Positions 9,349-18,201 of a stretch of 59,996 nucleotides of DNA are shown piece after piece. The stretch's first letter is position 1. Every line of letters starts with the position of its first letter. The position numbers and the translations under genes were made by a program. The DNA comes from a virus (taxonomy: Duplodnaviria; Caudoviricetes), in the IMG/VR virus record IMGVR_UViG_3300020042_007026, positions 1-59,996 of that record. The stretch is one strand, 5' to 3'. The notes below the pieces were generated by a model that saw only the letters and a program-made list of their open reading frames with translations, was not told where the DNA came from and ran no database searches.

Positions 9349-10013
9349 TGGGTGCAAATCTAGATGATTTTCTAGCTCATGCTAAATCTATAGATTGGTA
9401 CCATGCTGGTCCACACCAAGGACTAACTGACCTTTTGCAAAATGGTATGAAAGAGCCTAGACTACAAACTCCGGGACTTCCTAGCGTAGTTGATAACTTG
9501 CCAAGACTGGGTGCTTTTGGTGCTGGCATTAATCTAGCGTCTAACCCTGCTGATGTAAAAGAGTACTTTAAAGGTAGTGAGCCAGATAAGTGGGATCCTA
9601 ATAAAAAAGCAGCTTTGCTTACTGCTAAGTTTACTGGTAAAAACCCTTTAGTTTTTGCATCCTATAAACATGGAGTTGAAACCCCAAATTTTAGAGAAAC
9701 TCTTTGGAACGCATTAGACGAAGAAGCTAAGAAAATAAAACAACGTATTGTAAGCGGCGATATAGAAGATCATAGAGGCGATTACCTTCTTGGCAAGTTA
9801 GACTGGGTACAAAGAGGTGTTGAAAACGACAGCCCGGAAAGAGTTGGTCAAGCTGCTCCTTATGCAGGATTTGATTCGTATATAACAGACAATCACCAAC
9901 TACGACATGTAGGTGAAGAAGATAGCCTTCAAGCAGTAGTTAACAAGCCTTATGCTATGCGTGCTCTTCGTGTAAAGCATGGCAACCTTAGCGAAATGTT
10001 TGGTGAAAGATAG
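9348..10013 (+). CDS. ADP-ribosyltransferase-like protein (ART-PolyVal-like)
   Basis: WYHAG...GAFGAGINLASNP..VKEY...KNPL...AGFDSYI. Confidence 0.6.
   Translation: MGANLDDFLAHAKSIDWYHAGPHQGLTDLLQNGMKEPRLQTPGLPSVVDNLPRLGAFGAGINLASNPADVKEYFKGSEPDKWDPNKKAALLTAKFTGKNPLVFASYKHGVETPNFRETLWNALDEEAKKIKQRIVSGDIEDHRGDYLLGKLDWVQRGVENDSPERVGQAAPYAGFDSYITDNHQLRHVGEEDSLQAVVNKPYAMRALRVKHGNLSEMFGER
9998..10013 (+). repeat. 16-bp direct repeat GTTTGGTGAAAGATAG, copy 1
   Basis: Identical to 10357-10372. Confidence 0.9.
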
Positions 10014-10372
10014 TGGGTAGAAACAAAGCAGCCTTTCACGGCTATACACTAGAGTTTGAACACGCAGATACTTCTCCTGTAGAAGACTGTGATCACCACA
10101 GAGTAGATGCTTTCACTAAAGATGGCGAACAAATAGGTAGCCTAATGTGGTTTACTCCTGACGCGGGTGCGCGTACCTCTGGGTCAATAGATGTAGACGT
10201 ACACCCTGAGCATAGACGTAAAGGCGTAGCTACAGCTATGTACAAGTTTGCTTTACAAAAAGCTGAGGAGCACAATATTATTAAGCCAGATCTACTTAGA
10301 TCATCTTACGGACCTCAAGGTTATAGATGGGCAAGATCTTTAGGATTGCCTAAGAAGTTTGGTGAAAGATAG
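10013..10372 (+). CDS. GNAT-family N-acetyltransferase
   Basis: IDVDVHPEHRRKGVATAMY acetyl-CoA motif A. Confidence 0.85.
   Translation: MGRNKAAFHGYTLEFEHADTSPVEDCDHHRVDAFTKDGEQIGSLMWFTPDAGARTSGSIDVDVHPEHRRKGVATAMYKFALQKAEEHNIIKPDLLRSSYGPQGYRWARSLGLPKKFGER
10357..10372 (+). repeat. 16-bp direct repeat GTTTGGTGAAAGATAG, copy 2
   Basis: Identical to 9998-10013. Confidence 0.9.
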
Positions 10373-10485: not shown

Positions 10486-11001
10486 ATGCACGTAAACATA
10501 CCAGAACCATGGGACAAAAATAAAAGGATAAGTCCTTATGATCCATGGGATAAGAAAAAAGAGTGGGAAAAACCTGCTCCACCAAAGGTCGTTACAATTT
10601 CTGACCTATTTCCTCGTCTAGATCGTCTATCTATTGGATGGTCTCCACTTCTTGAGCAACTCAAAGAAGTTACAAATAATAAGCCAAGCTATCCTCCATA
10701 TGACATTGTTCAGCTGGATGAAGACACAAATCTACTCAATGTAGCTGTTGCTGGATTTACTAAAAAAGAAGTAACTGTTACTGTAAAAGACTCAGTTATT
10801 ACTATTGAAGGTAACAAAAAAGAAAAGCAACGTGGCGAAGTTGTTTACCAAGGCATTGCTACTCGTGACTTCAAGCTCTCTCTAGCTATTGCTGAGTACT
10901 GGGAAGTTACTACTGCTCAAATGGAAAACGGTATGTTAACGATTGAGTTTAACAAGACCCTTCCTGAAGAGTTGAAGCCAAAGGTAATTGACATTAAGTA
11001 G
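10486..11001 (+). CDS. hsp20: small heat shock protein (Hsp20/IbpA-like)
   Basis: PSYPPYDI...AVAGF...YQGIATRDF...AQMENGMLTI...PEELKPKVIDIK. Confidence 0.95.
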   Translation: MHVNIPEPWDKNKRISPYDPWDKKKEWEKPAPPKVVTISDLFPRLDRLSIGWSPLLEQLKEVTNNKPSYPPYDIVQLDEDTNLLNVAVAGFTKKEVTVTVKDSVITIEGNKKEKQRGEVVYQGIATRDFKLSLAIAEYWEVTTAQMENGMLTIEFNKTLPEELKPKVIDIK

Positions 11002-11016
11002 ATCTTAGTGTAGAAT
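10988..11016 (+). promoter_or_regulatory. consensus SigA promoter TTGACA-N17-TAGAAT
   Basis: Perfect -35 and 17-nt spacer; predicted start near 11023, upstream of the mini-tmRNA. Confidence 0.8.
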
Positions 11017-11021
11017 CGTAG

Positions 11022-11050
11022 TATCACCTGAGTATGTGTAGAAACTGCTC
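11022..11050 (+). ncRNA. compact H-type pseudoknot candidate in the mini-tmRNA leader
   Basis: CAC/GTG stem with loop GAGTA pairing to downstream TGCTC. Confidence 0.35.
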
Positions 11051-11053
11051 TTA

Positions 11054-11135
11054 GGGCTAGAAATGGTGTCGATTGCAGAACAAAGCCTCCAGTAGGACTC
11101 TGTAAGACCGCAGTTCAATTCTGCGCTGGTCCACC
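11054..11135 (+). ncRNA. minimal tmRNA-like RNA (tRNA-like domain only)
   Basis: Acceptor GGGCTAG/CTGGTCC with G3.U70 and A discriminator; stemless D-loop AAATGGTGTCGA; P2a TTGCAGA/TCTGTAA; GAC linker; T-arm CGCAG-TTCAATT-CTGCG. Confidence 0.8.
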
Positions 11136-11149
11136 CATGGAAGGAAAGT

Positions 11150-11323
11150 ATGCCAACATATCATTTTACTTGTAAAGAGTGTGACTCTACTGTAAGTCAC
11201 CTAATTCCTTTAGAGGAAGATATAGTAGCCCCCAAATGTTTGTCTTGTAATGAACCTATGGCTAGGGTATTCTCAATTCCTAGTATTGTATTCCGTGGTG
11301 GTGGTTGGGGCAGCAGTAATTGA
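11150..11323 (+). CDS. FmdB-family zinc ribbon protein
   Basis: Hand-translated MPTYHFTCKEC...PKCLSCNEPMARVFSIPSIVFRGGGW; GGAAGGA SD. Confidence 0.85.
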   Translation: MPTYHFTCKECDSTVSHLIPLEEDIVAPKCLSCNEPMARVFSIPSIVFRGGGWGSSN

Positions 11324-11769
11324 AGACATGTTCTTTGTGTAAGGTTGAAAAATCTTACGATCAATATATAACAAAACGGCGTAATAAAGATGGTGTAACT
11401 GCTATGTGTCGTGATTGCACTTTGCCCAGGAGTCGCCAACAATATAAAGAAAAGCCTGAACCTCAGAAGAAGGCTGTTAAAGAACGTAAATCTGGACATC
11501 GTGCTCGGGTAACCCAGTACAAGGTAGAAAACCCTTGTGACGATTGTCAAAAGTTTTATCCCTCCTATGTAATGCAGTTTGATCACGTTAGGGGTATAAA
11601 AAAAGCAGGGATCTCTCAGATGATTAGTGATGGGTATCCCTGGAATGAAATAGAAGAAGAAATACAGAAGTGCGAGTTAGTTTGTGCAAATTGCCATGCT
11701 GAACGCACATTTATGAGGCTAGGTTCTAGCCAACTCGACTACTACCATGAGGACTACCAACTTGATTAA
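11320..11769 (+). CDS. HNH endonuclease
   Basis: CSLC..CRDC; PCDDC..MQFDHV...CELVCANCHAERT. Confidence 0.85.
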   Translation: MKTCSLCKVEKSYDQYITKRRNKDGVTAMCRDCTLPRSRQQYKEKPEPQKKAVKERKSGHRARVTQYKVENPCDDCQKFYPSYVMQFDHVRGIKKAGISQMISDGYPWNEIEEEIQKCELVCANCHAERTFMRLGSSQLDYYHEDYQLD

Positions 11770-17339: not shown

Positions 17340-18201
17340 ACGAAGAACTGGTGCATTTAGCCAAGGCTCAGCTAGCGGTAGAGGCACACCTGTAAACCCT
17401 AACCAGGTCCCTGGTGCAGCATCTGTCCCTCTAATTACTCCTCATTTTGAAGAAGCACAAGCACAAGTAAACACAGAGTCTGTAAATGAGTCTGGTATTC
17501 CTCAATCAACTACAGAGGGTAATGCTACTTCTGCTGCACCAGCTACTCCTATTAGAGATCCTAAACATGGGTTCTATAAAGAAAATGGCGAATTTGAAAC
17601 AGATCCTGCAAAAATTGCTTCTGCTTTCGTAATGAGACCTGCTACCACTAGATCTACTGGTCAACCTTTTGGTGCAAGACACCCTGAGTACATACACCCA
17701 GAATCTGGAGTTAGCACAGAAAATATTTCTAGGCTTAATGAAACTAGAGCTACTCCTACTTTATCTCCAGGAATTAGAGTTAGGTTTGATGGACCTGATC
17801 CAGGAAGATTTAAGCTAAGCGATTTTGTACCTGGTCAATGGGTTAAAAAACAGGGTGAAATTACACCGTCTGGAATGGGCTGGGATGGTTCAGAAAAGGG
17901 CAGAGCTAAGCATGAAGCAGGATTGTTAGACAAACTTGTTATGCCGGCTGCTCTTAAAATTGCTGCAATTCATTTACAACTAAACACTGAAAAAAGAGGT
18001 AAGGCTACAGGAGTTGTTGCAGTAGCTGATAAAAATGAAACAAACACTCCTCAATGTTCTTTCTGTGGCACAGTAGGTGAAGCAGACAATAAGCAAGGAT
18101 TCGTTGCTGAACACGCCATCACAAAAAATGGATGGTGTAAAGCCGCAGTAATGGCACACAATGCGATGCACCCACTAAAAGGTAACCTAGAGGAACTTTA
18201 A
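17323..18201 (+). CDS. hypothetical protein
   Basis: 292-aa ORF; C-terminal CSFC...WC...H..H. Confidence 0.65.
   Translation: MGGSSRRRTGAFSQGSASGRGTPVNPNQVPGAASVPLITPHFEEAQAQVNTESVNESGIPQSTTEGNATSAAPATPIRDPKHGFYKENGEFETDPAKIASAFVMRPATTRSTGQPFGARHPEYIHPESGVSTENISRLNETRATPTLSPGIRVRFDGPDPGRFKLSDFVPGQWVKKQGEITPSGMGWDGSEKGRAKHEAGLLDKLVMPAALKIAAIHLQLNTEKRGKATGVVAVADKNETNTPQCSFCGTVGEADNKQGFVAEHAITKNGWCKAAVMAHNAMHPLKGNLEEL

What the first reader, a model, noticed from the sequence alone, without database searches (positions are those of the whole stretch)
11054..11135. Mini-tmRNA: intact tRNA-like domain with the whole tag-coding and pseudoknot region missing
Seen: an 80-nt element under a consensus TTGACA-17-TAGAAT promoter. 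It has a 7-bp acceptor stem with G3.U70 and an A discriminator (alanine identity), a stemless D-loop ending GG..UCGA, a 7-bp P2a helix, a GAC linker and a canonical T-arm. The roughly 270 nt that normally separate the P2 strands are replaced by 19 nt (ACAAAGCCUCCAGUAGGAC), which still carry tmRNA-like AAAGCC and GUAGGA. It ends ACCCA, so CCA would need host maturation. Established: these features define the SmpB-binding, AlaRS-charged domain of tmRNA, and tagless tmRNAs are known from some protist mitochondria. Inference: a phage RNA that titrates SmpB to block trans-translation, or enters stalled ribosomes and adds Ala without a degradation tag, possibly countering tRNA/mRNA-cleaving defences. 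I cannot confirm from here whether it has been described.
Basis: partly seen in the sequence, partly recalled or inferred. Interest (0 to 1): 0.9.

Follow-up and report, generated by a model that had tools for sequence, protein, structure and literature searches.

The report
Phage mini-tmRNA: tRNA-like domain only
This phage carries an 80-base RNA gene that is the alanine-tRNA-like head of the bacterial ribosome-rescue RNA (tmRNA) without its tag-coding body, a kind known from one mycobacteriophage and probably used to interfere with the host's ribosome rescue.

Summary
Window 11054-11133 (+) encodes an 80-nt RNA with a 7-bp acceptor stem (G3.U70, A discriminator), a stemless D region, a 7-bp P2a-like helix, a GAC linker and a T arm, downstream of an 11-of-12 sigma-70-like promoter.

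It is a family, not a one-off. 49 viral contigs plus the window carry it, and so do five cultured BRock-like Streptomyces phages, where it is unannotated. Across 42 distinct sequences, 97.8% of cells pair, 17 of 22 pairs show compensatory changes, and G3.U70 is kept in 40 of 42.

ARAGORN and Rfam's tmRNA and tRNA models all miss the window's copy. Rfam's tmRNA model does recognise 6 of 18 family members tested, DS6A's among them. A model built only from such members plus three BRock-like phage copies, none from the window's clade, finds the window copy at 60.8 bits.

A "TLD-only" tmRNA is already published for mycobacteriophage DS6A, and a similar molecule inhibited tmRNA in E. coli (PMC4131195, PMC11915505). 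This is therefore a new, divergent and widespread member of a known kind. Function is inferred: most likely competition with host tmRNA for SmpB and stalled ribosomes.

The parts
10988..11016 (+). Sigma-70-like promoter, TTGACA, 17-nt spacer, TAGAAT. The -35 hexamer overlaps the last codons of the Hsp20-like gene.
   Evidence: 11 of 12 positions match. The -35 and a TAnAnT-type -10 recur at the same place in relatives. Activity was not tested.
11017..11053 (+). Variable leader between promoter and mature 5' end, presumably removed by RNase P.
   Evidence: The leader differs in sequence and length among relatives, while the element begins at the same G. Processing is inferred.
11054..11133 (+). 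The whole 80-nt tRNA-like-domain-only tmRNA homologue, from G1 to the discriminator A.
   Evidence: Model R1 95.9 bits. Independent model R2 60.8 bits, E 4.7e-14, the only match in the window. Covariation.
11054..11060 (+). Acceptor stem, 5' strand (pairs with 11126-11132). The third pair is G.U, the alanine identity element.
   Evidence: helix 1 is 99.7% paired, with compensatory changes in 4 of 7 pairs. Pair 3 is G.U in 40 of 42 sequences and A-U in 2. Pairs 1 and 2 are G-C in 41 and 42 of 42.
11061..11072 (+). Stemless D region with GG (11065-11066) and TCGA (11069-11072).
   Evidence: GG and GA are invariant in all 43 aligned copies, including 5 that were not found by the search pattern. 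Positions 11069 and 11071 correspond to E. coli U17 and G19.
11073..11079 (+). P2a-like helix, 5' strand (pairs with 11099-11105).
   Evidence: helix 2 has compensatory changes in 7 of 7 pairs and is 95.5% paired.
11080..11098 (+). 19-nt cap that stands where tmRNA has its tag-coding and pseudoknot body: an A-rich internal loop, a 3-bp hairpin (11086-11088 with 11094-11096) with a 5-nt loop, then 2 nt.
   Evidence: helix 3 has compensatory changes in 2 of 3 pairs; in relatives Rfam replaces about 312 model positions with about 20 nt.
11099..11105 (+). P2a-like helix, 3' strand.
11106..11108 (+). GAC linker. G and A can form the tandem G.A/A.G pairs with 11071-11072 that open helix P2 in Rfam's tmRNA structure.
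   Evidence: A and C are invariant in 43 of 43 copies. Rfam structure lines. Position 11107 corresponds to E. coli A334.
11109..11125 (+). T arm: 5-bp stem and 7-nt loop TTCAATT.
   Evidence: helix 4 is 99% paired, with compensatory changes in 4 of 5 pairs. Part of the loop was fixed by the search pattern.
11126..11133 (+). Acceptor stem 3' strand and discriminator A.
   Evidence: TCCA is invariant in 43 of 43 copies.
11134..11137 (+). 3' trailer CCCA. CCA is not encoded in register, so trimming and CCA addition by host enzymes would be needed.
   Evidence: the base after the discriminator is C in 50 of 50 copies, and full CCA is encoded in 10 of 50.

Best explanation
The element is a phage gene for a 'mini-tmRNA', the tRNA-like domain (TLD) of tmRNA alone.

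Proposed pathway:
1. Host RNA polymerase transcribes it from the near-consensus promoter at 10988-11016, probably early in infection.
2. It is cut out like a tRNA: RNase P at the 5' end, 3' trimming, then CCA addition.
3. Host alanyl-tRNA synthetase charges it through G1-C72, G2-C71, G3.U70 and A73.
4. Host SmpB binds it through the D-loop TCGA, the GAC linker and helix P2a.
5. It has no resume codon, tag frame or stop codon, so it cannot complete trans-translation. It competes with host tmRNA for SmpB, and probably for EF-Tu and the empty A sites of stalled ribosomes.
6. The result is that ssrA tagging and tmRNA-dependent rescue are suppressed during infection.

Shown here: the sequence anatomy, homology to recognised TLD-only tmRNAs, covariation, and conservation across a phage lineage.
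Inferred: expression, processing, charging, SmpB binding and the effect on the host.
For: Anatomy and covariation:
- (figures in the observation check): 4 of 4 helices covary and 17 of 22 pairs show compensatory changes.
- G3.U70 is kept in 40 of 42 while neighbouring pairs 4-6 change freely.

Homology to recognised tmRNA TLDs:
- RF00023 aligns family members over model positions 1-374: L067 64.2 bits, L058 55.7, L052 47.1, L057 46.9, DS6A 43.2, Alone3 36.8 (gathering score 47).
- Model R2 was built from 7 such or BRock-like copies, none from the window's clade. It finds the window copy at 60.8 bits (E 4.7e-14) and 13 of 13 clade members tested. The best non-member scores 19 bits.
- The clade's departures from consensus, TCGAT for TCGAC and AGAC for GGAC, are the two sides of one compensatory C-G to U-A change at the first Watson-Crick pair of P2a (U-A 34, C-G 8; structure).

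SmpB contact bases:
- The bases equivalent to E. coli U17, G19 and A334 are kept. G and A are invariant in 43 of 43 copies and U in at least 90%.

It stands alone:
- No SmpB gene in the window or in 5 of 5 relatives that are 97-100% complete.
- No full-length tmRNA in those 5.

It behaves like a tRNA gene:
- 19 of 50 copies have a same-strand tRNA within 500 nt, some 0-4 nt away.

Literature (passages read):
- DS6A's ssrA is 'TLD only', and a similar molecule, chargeable or not, strongly inhibits tmRNA, perhaps by titrating SmpB (PMC4131195; PMC11915505).
- Peptidyl transfer to a TLD-only tmRNA occurs in vitro (PMC3895274).
Against: - Rfam's tmRNA model gives nothing for the window copy at E<=10, nor for 11 other members: 8 of 8, and L078, L070 and L064. 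Only 3 of 18 tested members reach the gathering score.
- Ordinary tRNAs score 18-30 bits on that model, so its weak hits alone would not be decisive.
- Nothing here shows expression, charging or SmpB binding.
- The host is unknown, so fit to the host's SmpB and AlaRS cannot be checked.
- Strict conservation of G3.U70 is more than pure SmpB titration needs. By the published account an unchargeable molecule also inhibits. This points to a step on the ribosome and fits the tagless-rescue rival equally well.
- Two members (L061, L076) have A-U at pair 3.
- Folding energy is not exceptional.
- D-loop and T-loop invariance among the 38 pattern-derived sequences was forced by the search pattern. Only the 5 BRock-like copies are free of that bias.
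Confidence: 0.5

Rival explanations
1. Tagless ribosome-rescue helper. The same RNA, charged with alanine and bound to host SmpB, enters ribosomes stalled on broken mRNAs, which are likely abundant during infection. It accepts the nascent chain, so ribosomes are freed (with ArfB, Pth or a second rescue round) without adding a degradation tag. It would add rescue capacity or spare phage proteins from tagging, rather than block rescue.
For: - G3.U70, G1-C72, G2-C71 and A73 are conserved, as expected if charging matters.
- Peptidyl transfer to a TLD-only tmRNA occurs in vitro (PMC3895274).
- tmRNAs of mitochondria that appear to lack a tag frame persist together with SmpB and are thought to help with incomplete mRNAs (PMC11915505).
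- The window keeps the element although ARAGORN finds no tRNA gene in it, while relatives have tRNA genes beside theirs.
Against: - With no stop codon there is no known route to release the peptidyl-TLD.
- The only reported experiment on such a molecule found inhibition of tmRNA (PMC4131195, PMC11915505; the primary paper, Mao et al. 2009, is not held).
- Two members have A-U at pair 3.
Confidence: 0.3
2. Another tRNA-like role unrelated to SmpB. Possibilities: a decoy or sponge for a host or phage factor that recognises tRNA or tmRNA shapes (nucleases, modification enzymes, RNase R), or an RNase P/Z processing signal that punctuates the polycistronic transcript ahead of the zinc-ribbon gene at 11150.
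For: - The element sits 16 nt upstream of the start codon of the next ORF and, in relatives, inside tRNA arrays.
- RNA ligase or RtcB genes lie in or near the tRNA regions of Alone3 and DS6A.
Against: - A processing signal would not need an invariant G3.U70, the D-loop TCGA, the GAC linker or a covarying P2a helix.
- The downstream gene differs among relatives while the element stays the same.
- No RNA-repair gene was seen among the 30 window ORFs scanned against Pfam.
Confidence: 0.12
3. A decaying or aberrant tRNA-Ala gene, or a leftover attachment-site fragment of a host ssrA gene, without function.
For: - The tRNA and tmRNA detectors fail on it.
- ssrA 3' ends are common phage integration sites (PMC11915505 and PMC9004378, passages).
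Against: - Both halves of the domain are present and covary.
- It is conserved from Streptomyces phages (terminase 50-52% identical to the window's) to freshwater contigs.
- There is no 7-nt anticodon loop, and the 5-nt loop varies.
- BRock is reported as having no genes predicted for lysogeny (PMC7453282).
- The gapped pattern gave no true copy in the representative genomes of 185,579 prokaryote species.
Confidence: 0.03

Closest known systems
TLD-only ssrA of mycobacteriophage DS6A (listed as 'TLD only', tmID 11587, in Hudson, Lau and Williams 2014, PMC4131195; the 'Standard, no CDS' form in PMC11915505)
   Same: Same architecture and almost the same length (DS6A L032:28478-28557, 80 nt to the discriminator). 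Both have a G3.U70 acceptor stem, a stemless D loop with the same AATGGTG start, a short P2a helix capped by about 20 nt, a T arm, an A discriminator and no encoded CCA. DS6A scores 77.1 bits on the family model.
   Different: DS6A keeps the consensus TCGAC at the end of the D loop and is seen by RF00023 (43.2 bits). The window copy has TCGAT paired with AGAC and is not seen. The phages are unrelated in type: DS6A is annotated with a tyrosine integrase and a tape-measure protein, while the window's phage has a tail sheath and its closest cultured relative, BRock, is reported as a virulent myovirus. The window copy belongs to a clade conserved over many contigs.
Canonical bacterial tmRNA (Rfam RF00023)
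   Same: The whole tRNA-like domain: acceptor stem with G3.U70, the GG and TCGA D-loop motifs, tandem G.A pairs opening P2, the GAC linker, the T arm and the A discriminator.
   Different: It lacks the resume codon, tag reading frame, stop codon and the roughly 300-nt pseudoknot body. It is not detected by RF00023 or ARAGORN. It is encoded by a virus that has no SmpB gene.
tmRNAs without a tag reading frame in mitochondria (jakobids and others), and ~65-bp CDS-less plastid tmRNAs of Mallomonadaceae (PMC11915505)
   Same: Natural tmRNA derivatives reduced to little more than the tRNA-like domain, relying on an SmpB encoded elsewhere.
   Different: Those are organelle genes, usually of the permuted form, and are presumed to serve the organelle's own rescue. 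This one is a standard-order gene on a phage and is more likely to act against, or in place of, the host's tmRNA.
tRNA-Ala
   Same: G1-C72, G2-C71, G3.U70 and A73, with a normal T arm. It lies among tRNA genes in relatives.
   Different: No D stem and no anticodon stem-loop. RF00005 gives no match at E<=10 and ARAGORN finds none.
Laboratory truncated tmRNAs (TLD constructs used in vitro and in ribosome crystal structures; cited in PMC3895274 and PMC8363625)
   Same: Essentially the same design: a TLD whose P2 helix is closed by a short loop. Such constructs accept the peptide on stalled ribosomes, and one was crystallised on the ribosome with SmpB and EF-Tu.
   Different: Those are engineered from bacterial tmRNAs. 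This one is a natural, evolutionarily conserved gene.

Membership tests
tmRNA tRNA-like domain (TLD) | 7-bp acceptor stem with G3.U70 and an A discriminator (alanine identity) | tested here: met
   G.U in 40 of 42 distinct family sequences, including the window. Pairs 1 and 2 are G-C. The discriminator A is invariant.
tmRNA tRNA-like domain (TLD) | D loop without a D stem, carrying GG and the TCGA motif (E. coli U17, G19) | tested here: met
   Window 11065-11066 and 11069-11072. The motif is followed by T instead of the consensus C, compensated on the other strand.
tmRNA tRNA-like domain (TLD) | Helix P2a opened by tandem G.A/A.G pairs, with a GAC linker (E. coli A334) before the T arm | tested here: met
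   Compensatory changes in 7 of 7 P2a pairs. A and C of the GAC linker are invariant in 43 of 43 copies and its G is kept in at least 90%.
tmRNA tRNA-like domain (TLD) | T arm of 5 bp with a 7-nt TTCNANT-type loop | tested here: met
tmRNA (Rfam RF00023) | Score at or above the curated gathering threshold (47 bits) | tested here: not met
   No match for the window at E<=10. Relatives: 3 of 18 tested reach 47 bits and 6 of 18 give significant end-to-end matches.
tmRNA (full, functional in trans-translation) | mRNA-like region with resume codon, tag reading frame and stop codon, plus pseudoknots | tested here: not met
   Only 19 nt lie between the P2a strands. ARAGORN, which needs a tag peptide, finds nothing.
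TLD-only tmRNA (DS6A type, 'Standard, no CDS') | Homology to recognised TLD-only genes, shown by a model that excludes the query's own clade | tested here: met
   R2 was built from DS6A, L052, L058, L067, LuckySocke, pSt2308 and BRock. The window scores 60.8 bits, E 4.7e-14, as a full-length match. Caveat: four of those seven were themselves retrieved with a pattern derived from the window.
TLD-only tmRNA (DS6A type) | Binds SmpB, is alanylated and inhibits host tmRNA | not testable with these tools
   Reported for 'a similar molecule' in E. coli (PMC4131195 and PMC11915505, passages). The primary paper is not held.
tRNA (RF00005) | Cloverleaf with D stem and a 7-nt anticodon loop; Rfam or ARAGORN detection | tested here: not met
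   The inner loop is 5 nt and variable.

The most novel reading that the evidence does not exclude
TLD-only tmRNAs may be an old, widespread and so far overlooked class of phage genes rather than a DS6A curiosity. They would be inherited within at least one myovirus lineage, from soil Streptomyces phages to freshwater phages, and would also occur in other phage types. Near-universal retention of the alanine identity set would mean they are charged and act on the ribosome: they would convert host trans-translation into an untagged, or aborted, rescue that benefits the phage. That would make control of ribosome rescue a general front in phage-host conflict.
Probability: 0.3. Interest if true: 0.7.

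Novelty: new member of a known kind. Interest (0 to 1): 0.5.

Why it matters
The published record, as far as I could read it, names one phage with a tag-less tmRNA (DS6A). The 2025 tmRNA database counts only 9 'Standard, no CDS' sequences among 97,179 (PMC11915505).

Here the same design appears as 42 distinct sequences, on 49 viral contigs plus the window and on five cultured Streptomyces phages. In the cultured phages it is unannotated, or overlaid by a 'hypothetical protein' call. Most copies, the window's included, are invisible to ARAGORN and to Rfam's tmRNA model.

This suggests that phages interfere with, or substitute for, trans-translation more often than is recognised. It also provides tractable systems in which to test why: BRock-like phages on laboratory Streptomyces strains. 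The conserved G3.U70 gives a sharp, testable distinction between simple SmpB titration and action on the ribosome.

Tried and rejected
- ARAGORN on the window found 0 genes. It also misses DS6A's element.
- Rfam at gathering thresholds found 0 matches. At E<=10 the only matches were two unrelated weak ones, STnc340 and TtnuCD34.
- RF00023 and RF00005 through the genome search gave no match at E<=10.
- GenBank phage DNA search with the locus gave no match. With the 126-nt element it gave only 9 short chance matches at E>=1. L057's element gave no match.
- The strict window pattern in genome contigs gave 14 stretches, none with a flanking acceptor stem or a T arm; the 12 Bradyrhizobium ones share one conserved sequence that begins with ATG.
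- The gapped pattern in genome contigs gave 9 stretches, none a member (best R1 score 17 bits).
- Of the 56 pattern matches in viral contigs, 7 were dropped as false positives. They share a different, non-tRNA-like sequence.
- Expression: no RNA holder is listed among the public runs.
- The DNA contigs of four runs show only that independent assemblies carry the same 80-nt form.
- Host identification was not achieved. A phylum-wide comparison with host tmRNAs was started but not carried through: one search was rejected for a parameter error, and only fetched two bacterial tmRNAs.
- Mao et al. 2009 (RNA Biol 6:355) is not held, so the inhibition experiment is cited second-hand.
- Supplementary tables are closed, so I could not check whether the 79 phage sequences of the 2025 tmRNA database already include BRock-like or other TLD-only genes.
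- Complex prediction was not used, because it takes no RNA partner.
- Literature searches for earlier descriptions found only the DS6A statements. The BRock genome paper reports 29 tRNAs, and its only 'tmRNA' is in the title of the ARAGORN reference.

Full report
**1. What is there**

The window is a 59,996-base virus record estimated 62% complete. It has about 42% G+C and encodes a T4-type large terminase, an SPP1-type portal, a capsid protein and a contractile tail sheath.

The element lies between an Hsp20-family gene (10486-11001; PF00011, E 3.6e-15) and a 57-codon zinc-ribbon ORF (11150-11323; PF09723, 34.3 bits against a cut-off of 34.4).

Read from the sequence, it has:
- a 7-bp acceptor stem whose third pair is G.U
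- a 12-nt D region with no stem, holding GG and TCGA
- a 7-bp helix
- 19 nt inside that helix
- a GAC linker
- a 5-bp T stem with loop TTCAATT
- a discriminator A, followed by CCCA.

The promoter TTGACA-17-TAGAAT at 10988-11016 matches 11 of 12 positions. The minimum-free-energy fold reproduces the acceptor stem, the 7-bp helix and the T arm, but its energy is not exceptional (z = -0.98).

**2. Standard detectors fail**

- ARAGORN finds no tRNA or tmRNA gene anywhere in the window.
- Rfam finds nothing at gathering thresholds.
- Rfam gives no tRNA- or tmRNA-clan match at E<=10 around the element.
- RF00023 and RF00005, searched singly against the record, give nothing at E<=10.

**3. It is conserved, and the structure covaries**

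Of 18 viral contigs that encode the neighbouring Hsp20 homologue, 6 have the element directly after it.

I then searched with a gapped pattern taken from the D loop and T loop. It matched 56 stretches of viral contigs. Seven are false positives of a different sequence. The other 49 carry the element, one of them cut by a contig end. Together with the window they give 38 distinct sequences.

Starting from one GC-rich member, BLAST led to five cultured Streptomyces phages: Alone3, LuckySocke, GiJojo, BRock and pSt2308. Each has a homologous element between tRNA-Val and tRNA-Ser (in pSt2308 a tRNA of unassigned type) in its tRNA cluster (family model 39.6-59.8 bits). It is unannotated in four of them and overlaid by "hypothetical protein" gene 44 in GiJojo.

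On the model-based alignment of 43 copies (42 distinct):
- 97.8% of cells form standard pairs.
- 17 of 22 pairs have changes on both sides.
- 0 of 500 column shuffles reach any of the five observed measures.
- Sliding the partners by 1-3 columns gives 32-46% pairing (the 38-sequence set gives the same picture).
- All four helices covary, including all 7 pairs of the long helix and the 3-bp hairpin inside the 19-nt insert.

Two caveats apply. The alignment was fitted to the structure. The invariance of the D-loop and T-loop motifs among the 38 pattern-derived sequences was imposed by the pattern.

The five Streptomyces-phage copies are free of that bias. They still share GG, GA, the A and C of the GAC linker, the GTTC and ATTC halves of the T loop, and the 3' TCCA.

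**4. Why it is a tmRNA tRNA-like domain**

*Alanine identity.* The G.U third pair is kept in 40 of 42 sequences, while pairs 4, 5 and 6 change freely. Pair 5 shows five different standard pairs. Pairs 1 and 2 stay G-C and the discriminator stays A. That is the alanine identity set of tRNA-Ala and tmRNA (established knowledge).

*Positive control for Rfam.* Rfam's tmRNA model can see such truncated forms. It aligns the DS6A element over model positions 1-374, with 312 positions replaced by 20 nt (43.2 bits, E 6.6e-14).

*Rfam on family members.* It does the same for L067 (64.2 bits), L058 (55.7), L052 (47.1), L057 (46.9) and Alone3 (36.8). It gives nothing for the window, L078, L070, L064 or 8 further members of the window's clade. 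That is 6 of 18 tested recognised, and 3 of 18 at or above the gathering score. Ordinary tRNAs give 18-30 bits on this model, so these hits need the supporting evidence below.

*Independent model.* I built a covariance model from only DS6A, L052, L058, L067 and three BRock-like copies, with no member of the window's clade. It finds the window's element as its only match in the window (60.8 bits, E 4.7e-14, full length). It finds 13 of 13 clade members tested, and the best non-member scores 19 bits.

*The divergence is compensatory.* In Rfam's tmRNA structure, helix P2 opens with G.A, A.G and then C-G. The window has G.A, A.G and then U-A. Across the family this pair is U-A in 34 sequences and C-G in 8.

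*SmpB contact bases.* A ribosome-structure paper places SmpB's Trp122 against tmRNA A334 and U17, with conserved G19 at SmpB's surface (PMC8363625, passage). Counting along the E. coli gene, these are the U and G of the D-loop TCGA and the A of the GAC linker. They correspond to window 11069, 11071 and 11107. The G and the A are invariant in all 43 copies and the U in at least 90%.

**5. What it is not**

- *Not a decoding tRNA.* It has no D stem, and the inner loop is 5 nt and variable.
- *Not a full or two-piece tmRNA.* Only 19 nt lie inside the helix. Five relatives that are 97-100% complete have no full-length tmRNA (only 12-13-bit scraps in three of them) and no SmpB gene. The window has no SmpB gene either.
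- *Not an assembly artefact or a one-off deletion.* A 13.5-kb contig from an independent public run spans 10700-11500 with 11 substitutions and no indel. The 80-nt form also recurs on dozens of contigs.
- *Not a chromosomal gene.* In the representative genomes of 185,579 prokaryote species, the same gapped pattern gave 9 stretches, none of them a member (best 17 bits).

GTAGGA is not conserved in the family, though. It is one side of the covarying hairpin.

**6. Context**

- In 19 of 50 copies a tRNA gene lies on the same strand within 500 nt, in several cases 0-4 nt away. One contig holds 21 tRNA genes around the element.
- The window has no tRNA gene at all but keeps the element.
- The base after the discriminator is C in 50 of 50 copies, and CCA is fully encoded in 10 of 50. 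Most copies would therefore need CCA completion.
- The window's terminase is 50-52% identical to those of the five BRock-like Streptomyces phages, and its sheath is 31-35% identical. The element therefore seems to have been inherited along this myovirus lineage.
- DS6A is a different kind of phage.
- Runs labelled freshwater or lake-water metagenomes hold near-identical DNA. Two of the 20 holder runs have half or more of the sampled words. The host is unknown.

**7. Mechanism**

I commit to competition with host tmRNA as the most likely function. The steps are laid out under the best explanation.

The support is partly published work. Hudson, Lau and Williams list DS6A's ssrA as "TLD only". 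[quoted passage not shown] The 2025 database paper repeats that it inhibited endogenous tmRNA when expressed in E. coli (PMC11915505, passages). The primary paper, Mao et al. 2009, is not held. Peptidyl transfer to a TLD-only tmRNA occurs in vitro (PMC3895274, passage).

The main rival is tag-less rescue that benefits the phage. By the published account, an unchargeable molecule also inhibits, so strict retention of G3.U70 suggests that charging, and hence a step on the ribosome, matters. That fits either ribosome-level competition or tag-less rescue. The two natural A3-U70 variants (L061, L076) could help separate the models.

Nothing here shows expression, charging or binding.

**8. Novelty**

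The kind is known. DS6A has been in the literature since 2009-2014. Tag-less forms are also described in mitochondria and, at about 65 bp, in two plastids.

What is new:
- *Scale.* There are 42 distinct sequences, against 9 "Standard, no CDS" entries among 97,179 in the 2025 database.
- *Cultured phages.* Five carry it unannotated. The BRock genome paper reports 29 tRNAs, and "tmRNA" appears there only in the title of the ARAGORN reference.
- *A divergent clade.* Current detectors miss it.
- *Conserved features.* The alanine identity set and the inner hairpin are conserved.

My searches for earlier descriptions found nothing beyond DS6A. Subscription journals and supplementary tables could not be checked.

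I rate it a new member of a known kind, of moderate interest.

Noticed in passing
window 11134-11136: One public assembly (run X4) carries 76 extra letters exactly after the element's discriminator, where relatives have a tRNA gene 0-4 nt downstream. A strain variant probably still has a tRNA there. The inserted letters were not shown.
   Followed up: no
L104:3854-3979 (Streptomyces phage Alone3, record about 18022-18147): Directly upstream of Alone3's mini-tmRNA lies an unannotated tRNA-like gene. RF00005 matches it at 37.5 bits, with 62 nt where the model has 9 consensus positions in the anticodon-loop region. It could be an intron-bearing tRNA or a second expanded tRNA-like RNA.
   Followed up: no
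L110:600-842 (Streptomyces phage GiJojo gene 44): A 'hypothetical protein' CDS is annotated over the mini-tmRNA (L110:602-679). It is probably a gene-calling error.
   Followed up: partly
L061:424-502 and L076:1039-1117: Two family members have A-U instead of G.U at acceptor pair 3. Their inner hairpin also fails to form standard pairs in the model alignment. They may be uncharged variants, and so natural controls for the role of alanylation.
   Followed up: no
window 1-59996 compared with L019, L026, L030: The window has no tRNA gene by ARAGORN, although close relatives carry tRNA-Trp, tRNA-Asn and tRNA-Thr next to the element. The mini-tmRNA is kept where the tRNAs are absent. The window is only 62% complete.
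   Followed up: partly
all 50 copies, first base after the discriminator (window 11134): The base after the discriminator A is C in 50 of 50 copies, although full CCA is encoded in only 10. This may reflect a constraint of 3' processing or CCA repair.
   Followed up: no
window 10013-10372 and 10486-11001: A small GNAT-family acetyltransferase ORF and an Hsp20-family ORF lie just upstream of the element. The Hsp20 gene's last codons contain the -35 hexamer of the element's promoter, in the window and in relatives.
   Followed up: partly
L033:301-1503 (DS6A gp76) and L104:5664-6746 (Alone3 gene 61): Both of these cultured phages that carry a mini-tmRNA also encode an RNA ligase: RtcB-like in DS6A, and 'RNA ligase' beside the tRNA cluster in Alone3. 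None was seen among the 30 window ORFs scanned against Pfam.
   Followed up: no
L055:2584-2665: A relative's tRNA cluster holds a long-armed tRNA-like gene that matches Rfam's tRNA-Sec model at 33.3 bits, below the gathering score of 47.
   Followed up: no
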